In this document: in pieces, positions 1 through 356 of the stretch | Position numbering within the stretch: position 1 is the stretch's first letter | Layout of the letters: each line of letters begins with the position of its first letter | From: Escherichia coli | GTDB taxonomy: Bacteria; Pseudomonadota; Gammaproteobacteria; Enterobacterales; Enterobacteriaceae | Assembly: GCF_003334385.1 (NCBI RefSeq) | Contig: NZ_QOWN01000193.1 | Length of the DNA: 356 nucleotides | Strand: one strand, 5' to 3' | Made by a program: the position numbers and the translations under genes | Notes under the pieces: generated by a model | Database searches by the model: none | What the model saw: only the letters and a program-made list of their open reading frames with translations | What the model was told of the DNA's origin: nothing

Positions 1-356
1 GGTGAAGGTGATGCATATATTCCGCCTCATACAGGTCTGCCAGCAAACAGTACCGATATTGCACCACCAGATATTCCTGCTGGCTTTGTGGCCGTTTTCA
101 ACAGTGATGAGTCATCGTGGCATCTCGTTGAAGATCATCGGGGTAAAACGGTTTATGACGTGGCTTCCGGCGACGCGTTATTTATTTTTGAACTCGGTCC
201 GTTACCGGAAAATGTTACCTGGTTATCCCCGGAAGGGGGGGTTCAGAAGTGGAGCGGCACAGCCTGGGTGAAGGATACGGAAGCAGAAAAACTGTTCCGG
301 ATCCGGGAGGCGGAAGAAACAAAAAACAGCCTGATGCAGGTAGCCAGTGAGCATAT
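1..356 (+). CDS. tfa: Phage tail fibre assembly protein (Tfa family), internal fragment, partial at both 5' and 3' ends; reading frame begins at position 1
   Basis: Frame 1 is open across the whole window: 118 sense codons with no TAA/TAG/TGA, last 2 nt incomplete. Translation: [118 protein letters not shown]. From memory this closely resembles the N-terminal and central part of E. coli prophage tail fibre assembly proteins (TfaE/TfaQ/TfaR-like, lambda Tfa family), including the motifs [37 protein letters not shown] and [18 protein letters not shown]. The specific paralogue cannot be assigned. No start or stop codon of the gene lies in the window; the in-frame ATG at 334-336 is an internal Met. 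The ORF track did not report this frame, presumably because it has no stop in the window. Confidence 0.85.

What the first reader, a model, noticed from the sequence alone, without database searches (positions are those of the whole stretch)
1..356. Scattered amino-acid differences from remembered E. coli K-12 Tfa paralogues suggest a divergent or mosaic allele
Compared with my recollection of TfaQ/TfaR-type sequences, this fragment appears to carry substitutions at several places (for example DESSW against DEASW, FIFELG against FISELG, ENVTW against ENFTW, ETKNSL against ETKKSL), with the rest near-identical. Tail fibre and tfa genes are known to recombine between prophages, so a variant allele is expected rather than surprising. 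The comparison cannot be verified without a database.
Basis: inference. Interest (0 to 1): 0.15.

Follow-up and report, generated by a model that had tools for sequence, protein, structure and literature searches.

The report
Rare mosaic prophage tfa allele
The window is an internal piece of an ordinary prophage gene for a tail-fibre assembly chaperone. This is a rare but already catalogued variant, built by the routine gene-shuffling between related prophages plus four amino-acid changes of its own.

Summary
The window is nt 76-431 (codons 26-143, frame 1) of a 582-nt tail fibre assembly gene (tfa, RefSeq WP_152066050.1). It lies in a near-complete lambda-like prophage at the tRNA-Arg/DLP12 site of E. 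coli SCU-104.

K-12 TfaQ/R/D already carry DESSW and ENVTW, and TfaD carries ETKNSL. Against TfaQ the real differences are S88F, E105G, F106V, N110S and N135S.

The allele is real. The identical 582 nt occur in 10 independent assemblies, but in only 1 of 5,426 complete E. coli genomes.

Mosaicism holds once the whole gene is used. Gene nt 1-354 is TfaR/Q-type, and nt 355-582 plus about 1.6 kb downstream is the type resident at this locus. The junction lies at window 280-328 (max-chi2 p=5e-5). Inside the window alone the test is not significant.

The substitutions at window 188, 239 and 241 were found in no other allele. The one at 254 was shared by a single allele. Their effect is unknown, and the Stf tip they accompany works with ordinary Tfa alleles elsewhere.

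Verdict: ordinary, already catalogued, low interest.

The parts
1..356 (+). Internal part of the tfa coding sequence (codons 26-143 of 193, frame 1). The gene overlaps the stop codon of the upstream side tail fibre gene stf by 1 nt.
   Evidence: Frame 1 is open. Exact match to NZ_CP053284.1 1292824-1293179, inside CDS HHJ22_RS06195 / WP_152066050.1. Pfam Caudo_TAP E=1.7e-42. PHROG 105 'tail fiber assembly' E=6e-98.
1..279 (+). Segment with a TfaR/TfaQ-type backbone, encoding most of the N-terminal domain. Leaving aside sites 93, 188, 228, 239, 241 and 254, only site 172 differs from the BHUCD02 tfaR allele within this segment.
   Evidence: Difference lists and minimum-mismatch copying path.
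66..87 (+). Three linked synonymous sites (A66, T78, T87). This is one of two common haplotypes in the family (ATT 15 alleles, GGC 29) and differs from K-12 tfaQ/tfaR (GGC).
188..188 (+). C->T giving S88F. Found in none of 61 other distinct alleles.
   Evidence: The best non-self match to window 180-262 in 5,426 genomes is 95.2%.
235..241 (+). G7 run created by A239G (E105G) and T241G (F106V). Both states are absent from all 61 other alleles.
   Evidence: The exact motif has 0 hits in viral, metagenome and species-representative collections. It is present in 10 independent assemblies.
254..254 (+). A->G giving N110S. Shared by 1 of 61 other alleles (L032).
280..328 (+). Recombination junction interval (protein residues 119-135). 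Both parental types are identical to the window here. It falls at the boundary between the N-terminal and C-terminal modules.
   Evidence: Max-chi2 places the breakpoint between 279 and 329, as does the copying path. C-terminal homology to Mu Tfa starts at residue 127. N-only and C-only PHROG families meet at residues ~100-136.
329..356 (+). Start of the 'locus-type' segment. With the junction interval (280-328) it forms an unbroken 228-nt identity to L018/L019 that runs to the end of the gene. Near-identity to L019 continues for ~1.6 kb downstream.
269..356 (+). First 88 of 199 positions of Rfam family IS009 (RF02111). This sRNA candidate family lies wholly inside tfa on the sense strand.
   Evidence: 86.8 bits, cut at the 3' end. 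The full-length match in the genome scores 227 bits against a gathering score of 117. It is also found in K-12 tfaD/Q/R and lambda tfa. No covariation supports its structure.

Best explanation
The window encodes residues 26-143 of Tfa. Tfa is the small chaperone that helps the side tail fibre (Stf) of lambda-like phages fold into a trimer. The gene sits in a near full-length lambda-like prophage integrated at tRNA-Arg, which is the intact counterpart of K-12's DLP12 remnant.

The allele is a patchwork made by homologous recombination between the nearly identical tfa genes of lambdoid prophages and phages.
- Its 5' 354 nt are TfaR/TfaQ-type.
- Its 3' 228 nt and the downstream DNA are the type resident at this chromosomal locus.
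- The upstream Stf tip module is shared with prophages at other loci.
- The junction (window 280-328) falls in a 49-nt stretch identical in both parents, at the boundary between the variable N-terminal fibre-binding module and the conserved C-terminal helical module.

On top of this patchwork the lineage carries four missense changes: S88F, E105G, F106V and N110S. The first three were found in no other allele, and N110S was found in one. They most likely arose as point mutations in this prophage lineage.

Shown here: gene identity, context, rarity, authenticity of the allele, the junction, and family-wide recombination.

Inferred: the recombination mechanism (from published lambda x Rac crosses), the chaperone function (from homology), and the origin and neutrality of the four private changes.
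For: Identity and context:
-.
- The prophage runs intD ... Q-like, lysis, terminase, head, tail, J, lom, stf, tfa.

Authenticity:
- The exact 193-aa protein and the exact 582-nt DNA occur in 10 separate assemblies (NCBI isolates, JGI and ENA metagenomes).
- All sit in front of the same Mn-catalase/DUF892/KGG/ompT neighbourhood.

Rarity:
- Only 1 of 5,426 complete genomes is >=99% identical; the next best is 97.8%.

Mosaic:
- Copying path L004 (gene nt 1-354, 8 mismatches) followed by L018 (gene nt 355-582, 0 mismatches).
- Max-chi2 36, p=5e-5.
- A 19-difference patch at window 66-279 sits in otherwise ~99.7% identical DNA compared with L019.
- Family-wide, Rm>=13 inside the window, 336 of 780 site pairs fail the four-gamete test, and the PHI-like test gives p=0.0005.
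- The Stf tip is identical in 24 other genomes at other loci, where it is followed by different tfa alleles.

Mechanism precedent:
- Lambda x Rac crossovers were mapped experimentally inside the 95%-identical tfa region (PMC3945230).

Module boundary:
- and PMC9608196.

Private sites:
-.
Against: - The direction of exchange is not determined. L018/L019 or the TfaR-type alleles could themselves be the recombinants, because every allele in this family is a patchwork.
- Inside the window only one informative site (329) lies to the right of the junction, so the window alone gives p about 0.3.
- The origin of the four private changes is open. They lie within 67 nt and all are nonsynonymous (4N/0S against 34N/55S in the family, one-sided p=0.025, chosen after the fact). 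That would also fit a short conversion tract from an unsampled donor, or selection.
- The second tfa copy in SCU-104 could not be retrieved, so it was not examined as a possible donor.
Confidence: 0.85

Rival explanations
1. The cluster 188-254 (S88F, E105G, F106V, N110S, possibly with the rare synonymous 228C and 93C) was imported in one step. It would be a short gene-conversion tract from a more divergent, unsampled tfa homologue rather than a series of point mutations.
For: The family exchanges short multi-site blocks, for example 162/165/168/171, 198/199/201 and 273/277/279. Four changes lie within 67 nt. The clustering statistic gives p about 0.003, though it was chosen after the fact.
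Against: No donor was found. The states are absent from 61 other distinct alleles. No other place in 5,426 genomes comes closer than 4/83 differences. The exact 239/241 motif has 0 hits in IMG/VR, JGI metagenome contigs and 100,044 species-representative genomes. A tract from a divergent donor would normally bring synonymous differences too, but all four private changes are nonsynonymous.
Confidence: 0.15
2. The four private missense changes are adaptive and retune the chaperone's N-terminal fibre-binding domain to the particular Stf tip encoded just upstream.
For: All four are nonsynonymous and hit positions that are otherwise invariant or nearly so among 61 alleles. Published work describes the N-terminal domain as the fibre-binding, variable module (PMC9608196). 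SCU-104's Stf has a distinctive hypervariable tip segment.
Against: The same Stf tip (0-2 mismatches over the last ~450 nt of stf) occurs in 24 other complete genomes. In all five examined it is followed by tfa alleles carrying S88, E105, F/Y106 and N110. The 4N/0S excess is weak (p=0.025, chosen after the fact). The prophage has an internal stop in a tail gene and a frameshifted TraR-like gene, which fits relaxed constraint equally well.
Confidence: 0.08
3. The distinctive bases, especially the G7 run at 235-241, are sequencing or assembly errors in one genome.
For: Only one complete genome carries them. Homopolymer runs are error-prone. The same prophage has genes flagged 'internal stop' and 'frameshifted'.
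Against: The identical 582-nt gene is present in 10 assemblies from different projects and assemblers, including Illumina-style metagenome assemblies. The changes are substitutions that keep the reading frame, not indels.
Confidence: 0.01
4. The allele diverged from TfaQ/TfaR by point mutation alone, with no recombination.
For: Overall identity is high (97.2%), and within the window the junction test is not significant.
Against: There are 25 differences from tfaQ/R in the last 151 nt of the gene, against 10-11 in the 356-nt window. The last 228 nt are identical to L018/L019, which differ at 19 sites upstream. Four-gamete incompatibilities are pervasive.
Confidence: 0.02

Closest known systems
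E. coli K-12 TfaQ (Qin) and TfaR (Rac), b1373 / WP_000885611.1
   Same: Same gene family, and the same position directly after stf. Within the window they are 97.2% / 96.9% identical in nt and 95.8% / 94.9% in aa. They share DESSW and ENVTW.
   Different: S88F, E105G, F106V, N110S and N135S (plus N83D against TfaR). The last 151 nt differ at 25 sites, and the C-terminus is ...APDIEWPVIPEV instead of ...AQDIEWPALP. No pin invertase lies downstream.
Phage lambda Tfa (orf-194, NP_040605.1)
   Same: Homologous over its full length. 94.4% nt and 93.2% aa identity in the window, with the same stf-tfa arrangement.
   Different: Eight aa differences in the window (A63S, S88F, F97V, G103E, E105G, Y106V, N110S, K134N), and a different C-terminal tail.
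K-12 TfaD (DLP12), the positional counterpart
   Same: Same chromosomal site (tRNA-Arg prophage next to ompT). Shares ETKNSL, DAVDLE and TSTAPDIEWP with the window allele and its 3' part.
   Different: TfaD has lost its authentic N-terminus through a deletion fusion. It differs at S81F, E98G, F99V, N103S and A111T in its own numbering, and at the extreme C-terminus.
IMG/VR alleles L018/L019 (prophages at the same locus)
   Same: Identical over gene nt 355-582. L019 is also ~99.7% identical for 1.8 kb downstream.
   Different: 19 differences within window 66-279.
Phage Mu Tfa (gene U product, PDB 5YVQ chain B)
   Same: The C-terminal helical region is homologous (residues 127-192, E=1e-9). Same modular plan (PMC9608196).
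   Different: The N-terminal domain is not detectably similar in sequence. Mu's gene lies in an invertible segment.
Rfam IS009 (RF02111)
   Same: Window 269-356 matches model positions 1-88. The full gene reaches 227 bits against a gathering score of 117.
   Different: The family lies on the sense strand inside a translated gene. Its proposed pairs show no compensatory change in 37 distinct sequences, so the match reflects coding conservation.

Membership tests
Lambda-type tail fibre assembly protein (Pfam PF02413 Caudo_TAP; PHROG 105) | Significant match to the family profile over most of the protein | tested here: met
   Caudo_TAP residues 72-192, E=1.7e-42. PHROG 105 residues 1-192, E=5.9e-98. 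No NCBIfam model matched.
Lambda-type tail fibre assembly protein (Pfam PF02413 Caudo_TAP; PHROG 105) | Gene lies immediately downstream of the side tail fibre gene in a tail module | tested here: met
   stf is at L001 8954-11926 and tfa at 11926-12507, a 1-nt overlap, following J and lom.
Lambda-type tail fibre assembly protein (Pfam PF02413 Caudo_TAP; PHROG 105) | Conserved C-terminal helical region shared with structurally characterised Tfa (Mu) | tested here: met
   5YVQ_B, query residues 127-192, E=1.1e-9. Only residues 127-143 of this region lie in the window.
Lambda-type tail fibre assembly protein (Pfam PF02413 Caudo_TAP; PHROG 105) | Chaperone activity: required for Stf trimer assembly | not testable with these tools
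   Needs a phage complementation or co-expression assay.
   10-11 nt differences in the window and 35-36 over the gene. The 3' third is of another type.
Recombinant (mosaic) allele | Significant change of nearest relative along the sequence | tested here: met
   Whole gene: max-chi2 36, p=5e-5, breakpoint at window 279-329, plus the patch against L019. Inside the window alone it is not significant (p about 0.3).
P2/Mu/e14-type Tfa in an invertible host-range segment (TfaE) | High similarity to TfaE and an adjacent pin/gin-type invertase | tested here: not met
   38% aa identity to TfaE. No recombinase is annotated downstream; the next gene is Mn catalase.
Rfam IS009 sRNA (RF02111) | Score at or above the gathering threshold | tested here: met
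   227.4 bits against 117 for L001 12269-12467. The window alone holds 88 of 199 positions and scores 86.8 bits.
Rfam IS009 sRNA (RF02111) | Base pairs maintained by compensatory change (evidence of a selected structure) | tested here: not met
   0 of 23 pairs change on both sides. The covariation score of 0.058 is reached by 500/500 shuffles. Fold z-score is -2.1.
Rfam IS009 sRNA (RF02111) | A discrete transcript distinct from the tfa mRNA | not testable with these tools
   Needs Northern blot or RNA-seq. [quoted passage not shown]

The most novel reading that the evidence does not exclude
The private missense changes (S88F, E105G, F106V, N110S) all lie in the fibre-binding N-terminal domain, at positions otherwise invariant or nearly so in the sampled family. 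They could be a selected retuning of the chaperone, for example altered specificity or a role beyond Stf folding, rather than neutral drift in a decaying prophage. The evidence does not exclude this, but the same Stf tip works with ordinary Tfa alleles elsewhere.
Probability: 0.07. Interest if true: 0.25.

Novelty: already known. Interest (0 to 1): 0.07.

Why it matters
It matters little. Tfa proteins, their two-module build and the constant reshuffling of stf/tfa genes among lambdoid prophages are textbook, and this allele already has a RefSeq accession.

Three modest points are useful:
- It is a clean worked example of a crossover at the N-module/C-module boundary of tfa. That matches where lambda x Rac recombinants were mapped experimentally.
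- It is a caution that a 356-nt window cannot by itself demonstrate mosaicism in a family that is 95-98% identical.
- It is a reminder that Rfam's IS009 'sRNA' hits are really the 3' half of tfa coding sequences.

Tried and rejected
1. Sequencing error at the G7 run. Rejected: the identical gene is in 10 independent assemblies.

2. Co-adaptation of the private Tfa changes with the upstream Stf tip. Rejected as a requirement: the same tip is followed by ordinary tfa alleles in other genomes.

3. Search for a donor or for intermediates carrying the private states. Nothing was found.
- The 21-mer spanning 239/241 had 0 hits in viral contigs, metagenome contigs and genome contigs.
- The 20-mer spanning 188 gave three chance hits unrelated to tfa.
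- The 83-nt sub-query against 5,426 genomes matched nothing closer than 95.2%.
- The metagenome collection evidently lacks the JGI contig that does carry the allele (L010), so that negative result is weak.

4. Breakpoint test restricted to the window: not significant.

5. IS009 as a structured RNA: no covariation support.

6. The frame-2 ORF (window 2-271, 89 aa) is open in only 45 of 62 alleles, so it is not a conserved overlapping gene.

7. No promoter-like or terminator-like sites were found in the window.

8. I could not retrieve the second tfa copy in SCU-104, because the search tool lists only the best place per record. Intragenomic conversion between SCU-104's own prophages was therefore not tested.

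9. I did not run structure prediction or deep homology searches. They would not change the verdict.

Full report
**What the window is**

Frame 1 of the + strand is open across all 356 nt. It reads [118 protein letters not shown]. The other five frames carry 3-9 stops.

The window matches one record at 100%: E. coli SCU-104, NZ_CP053284.1 1292824-1293179. There it is nt 76-431 of a 582-nt gene annotated 'tail fiber assembly protein', WP_152066050.1.

The protein matches Pfam Caudo_TAP (E=1.7e-42) and PHROG 105 'tail fiber assembly' (E=6e-98). Its C-terminal 66 residues align with the solved Mu Tfa, 5YVQ_B.

The gene overlaps by one base the stop codon of a 990-aa side tail fibre gene. It closes a near-complete lambda-like prophage: intD at tRNA-Arg, then exo/bet/gam, repressor, O/P-like replication genes, Q-like antiterminator, lysis genes, terminase, head, tail, J, lom, stf and tfa. 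On the far side lie Mn catalase, two DUF892 genes, a KGG stress protein, a methyltransferase and ompT. This is therefore the intact counterpart of K-12's DLP12 remnant, and K-12 tfaD is its positional equivalent.

**Checking the observation**

The comparison strings it 'remembered' as TfaQ/TfaR (DEASW, FISELG, ENFTW, ETKKSL) are those of lambda Tfa. K-12 TfaQ, TfaR and TfaD read DESSW, FISELG and ENVTW. TfaQ/R read ETKNNL and TfaD reads ETKNSL. Only S88F (FIS->FIF) is a real difference from TfaQ/R.

True differences inside the window:

| Reference | nt differences | aa differences |
|---|---|---|
| K-12 tfaQ | 10 (sites 66, 78, 87, 93, 188, 228, 239, 241, 254, 329) | 5 (S88F, E105G, F106V, N110S, N135S) |
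| K-12 tfaR | 11 | 6 |
| lambda tfa | 20 | 8 |
| K-12 tfaE | not alignable as DNA | 38% aa identity |

**Is the allele real, and how common is it?**

Homologues of the window occur in 4,063 of 5,426 complete E. coli genomes, at 7,809 places. Only SCU-104 is >=99% identical, and the next best is 97.8%. The best phage record is 97.2% and the best plasmid record is 97.2%.

The exact 193-aa protein is nevertheless on record from many sources. The identical 582-nt DNA is present in 10 separate assemblies: NCBI isolate drafts plus JGI and ENA metagenome assemblies. All have the same downstream neighbourhood, with 0-1 mismatch in up to 5 kb downstream and about 1.4 kb of collinear stf upstream. It is a genuine allele of one closely related prophage lineage, not a sequencing artefact.

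**Mosaic structure**

I compared the gene with 61 other distinct alleles: 80 IMG/VR loci plus the K-12 and lambda references.

- A minimum-mismatch copying path splits the gene in two. Nt 1-354 is closest to a TfaR-type allele (L004, 8 mismatches). Nt 355-582 is identical to L018/L019.
- L018/L019 differ from the window at 19 sites upstream of the junction. TfaQ/R-type alleles differ at 25 sites in the last 151 nt of the gene.
- Max-chi2 for either parental pair is about 36, p=5e-5. The breakpoint lies between window 279 and 329.
- Against L019, a prophage in the same chromosomal context, there are 2 differences in window -178..65, 19 in 66..279, and 6 in 280..2100. This is a short divergent patch in a ~99.7% identical background.
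- The upstream Stf tip is yet another module. Its last ~450 nt are identical in 24 other complete genomes at other loci (next to sitABCD, a Qin-like site, next to cif), and each is followed by a different tfa allele.
- Family-wide, at least 13 recombination events are needed within the window alone. 336 of 780 informative site pairs fail the four-gamete test, and a PHI-like test gives p=0.0005.
- Linked multi-site blocks reassort among alleles: 66/78/87, 162/165/168/171 and 273/277/279.

Within the 356 nt alone, only one informative site (329) lies to the right of the junction. The breakpoint test there is not significant (p about 0.3). A statistic chosen after seeing the data (two disjoint 30-nt clusters of four differences from tfaQ) gives p about 0.003, while two other dispersion measures are not significant.

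**Where the junction falls**

Window 280-328 encodes residues 119-135.
- Homology to the Mu Tfa C-terminal region starts at residue 127.
- PHROG families that match only the N part (residues 1-99, 2-129) or only the C part (102-192, 115-192, 126-192, 136-191) meet in the same zone.
- Published work describes Tfa proteins as a variable N-terminal fibre-binding domain plus a conserved C-terminal helical domain (PMC9608196).
- Lambda x Rac crossovers were mapped experimentally inside the 95%-identical tfa region (PMC3945230).

Homologous recombination between co-resident or infecting lambdoid elements is therefore the inferred mechanism.

**The private changes**

- Sites 188 (S88F), 239 (E105G) and 241 (F106V) are found in none of the 61 other alleles.
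- Site 254 (N110S) is found in one other allele.
- The synonymous states 93C and 228C are found in 3 and 14 other alleles.
- In all 5,426 genomes, no other place matches window 180-262 better than 95.2%, which is 4 of 83 differences.
- The 239/241 motif is absent from IMG/VR, the JGI contig collection and 100,044 species-representative genomes.
- A239G and T241G together create a G7 run at 235-241.
- All four private changes are nonsynonymous, against 34N/55S in the family. The one-sided p is 0.025, which is weak and chosen after the fact.

I tested the obvious functional idea, co-adaptation with the distinctive Stf tip, and found no support. The same tip is paired with tfa alleles carrying S88/E105/F-or-Y106/N110 elsewhere.

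The prophage has an internal stop in a gpM-like tail gene and a frameshifted TraR-like gene, so relaxed constraint is a plausible alternative. I cannot tell apart neutral or slightly deleterious point mutations (favoured), an imported tract from an unsampled donor, and selection.

**Other features in the window**

Rfam IS009 (RF02111) matches window 269-356, which is model positions 1-88.
- In the genome the full 199-nt match scores 227 bits against a gathering score of 117. It lies wholly within tfa on the sense strand.
- K-12 tfaD/Q/R and lambda tfa match equally well.
- Across 37 distinct sequences, none of the 23 proposed pairs shows a compensatory change, and the covariation is no higher than in the shuffles. 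The fold z-score is -2.1.
- PMC5331693 excludes IS009 from its ncRNA analysis, in a list of Rfam RNAs that should naturally carry ribosome footprints.
- The hit therefore reflects coding conservation. There is no evidence here for a structured RNA.

No promoter-like or terminator-like sites were found. The 89-aa frame-2 ORF is open in only 45 of 62 alleles.

**Verdict**

This is a rare, catalogued, recombinant allele of a very well known prophage gene. Novelty: already known. Interest: low.

Noticed in passing
window 269-356 (L001 12269-12467 for the full match): Rfam family IS009 (RF02111), listed as an sRNA gene, coincides with the sense strand of the 3' half of tfa in SCU-104, K-12 tfaD/Q/R and lambda. 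Its consensus structure shows no compensatory changes in 37 distinct sequences, so cmscan 'IS009' hits in prophages are effectively tfa coding-sequence hits.
   Followed up: yes
L104 2884-3786 (E. coli A20, NZ_CP028755.1 2084039-2084941): In a prophage at the same chromosomal site, a 300-aa 'macro domain-containing protein' gene is inserted between stf and tfa. This is an unusual cargo gene splitting the normally overlapping stf-tfa pair.
   Followed up: no
window 235-241: The two private substitutions A239G and T241G fuse GGGG-A-G-T into a run of seven G inside the coding frame. Such a run is a potential slippage-prone tract. It is present in all 10 carriers.
   Followed up: partly
L004 2926-3501 (E. 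coli BHUCD02 tfaR) versus L005 4412-4987 (MG1655 tfaR): A K-12-sized genome carries a tfaR that differs from MG1655 tfaR only at window-equivalent sites 66, 78 and 87. These three clustered synonymous changes form the alternative ATT haplotype and look like a very short conversion tract.
   Followed up: partly
L068 1-337 (IMGVR_UViG_2671180490_000011): This stretch is 100% identical to the SCU-104 stf 3' end plus the first 47 nt of tfa. It is followed by an N and then the body of an stf gene, giving a chimeric 736-aa ORF. It looks like a scaffold-join artefact in the source draft genome.
   Followed up: partly
L001 2401-2730 and L101 10396-10613: The SCU-104 prophage is almost complete, but a gpM-like tail gene is annotated with an internal stop and a TraR/DksA-like gene as frameshifted. 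The element may therefore be defective.
   Followed up: no
L105 3957-4805 (E. coli SC477): The type III effector gene cif sits just downstream of a tfa that follows the same Stf tip module as SCU-104. This illustrates that one fibre-tip module travels among prophages with different cargo.
   Followed up: no
L001 11579-11740 (Stf residues about 875-930): Stf has a hypervariable segment of ~50 residues, rich in indels and H-x-H repeats, just before a ~60-residue C-terminus that is conserved across all alleles compared. SCU-104's version matched none of the 14 comparator loci but is 100% identical in 24 other genomes.
   Followed up: partly
window 2-271, frame 2: There is an 89-aa alternative-frame ORF on the + strand. 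It is open in 45 of 62 alleles, so it is not conserved as a gene.
   Followed up: yes
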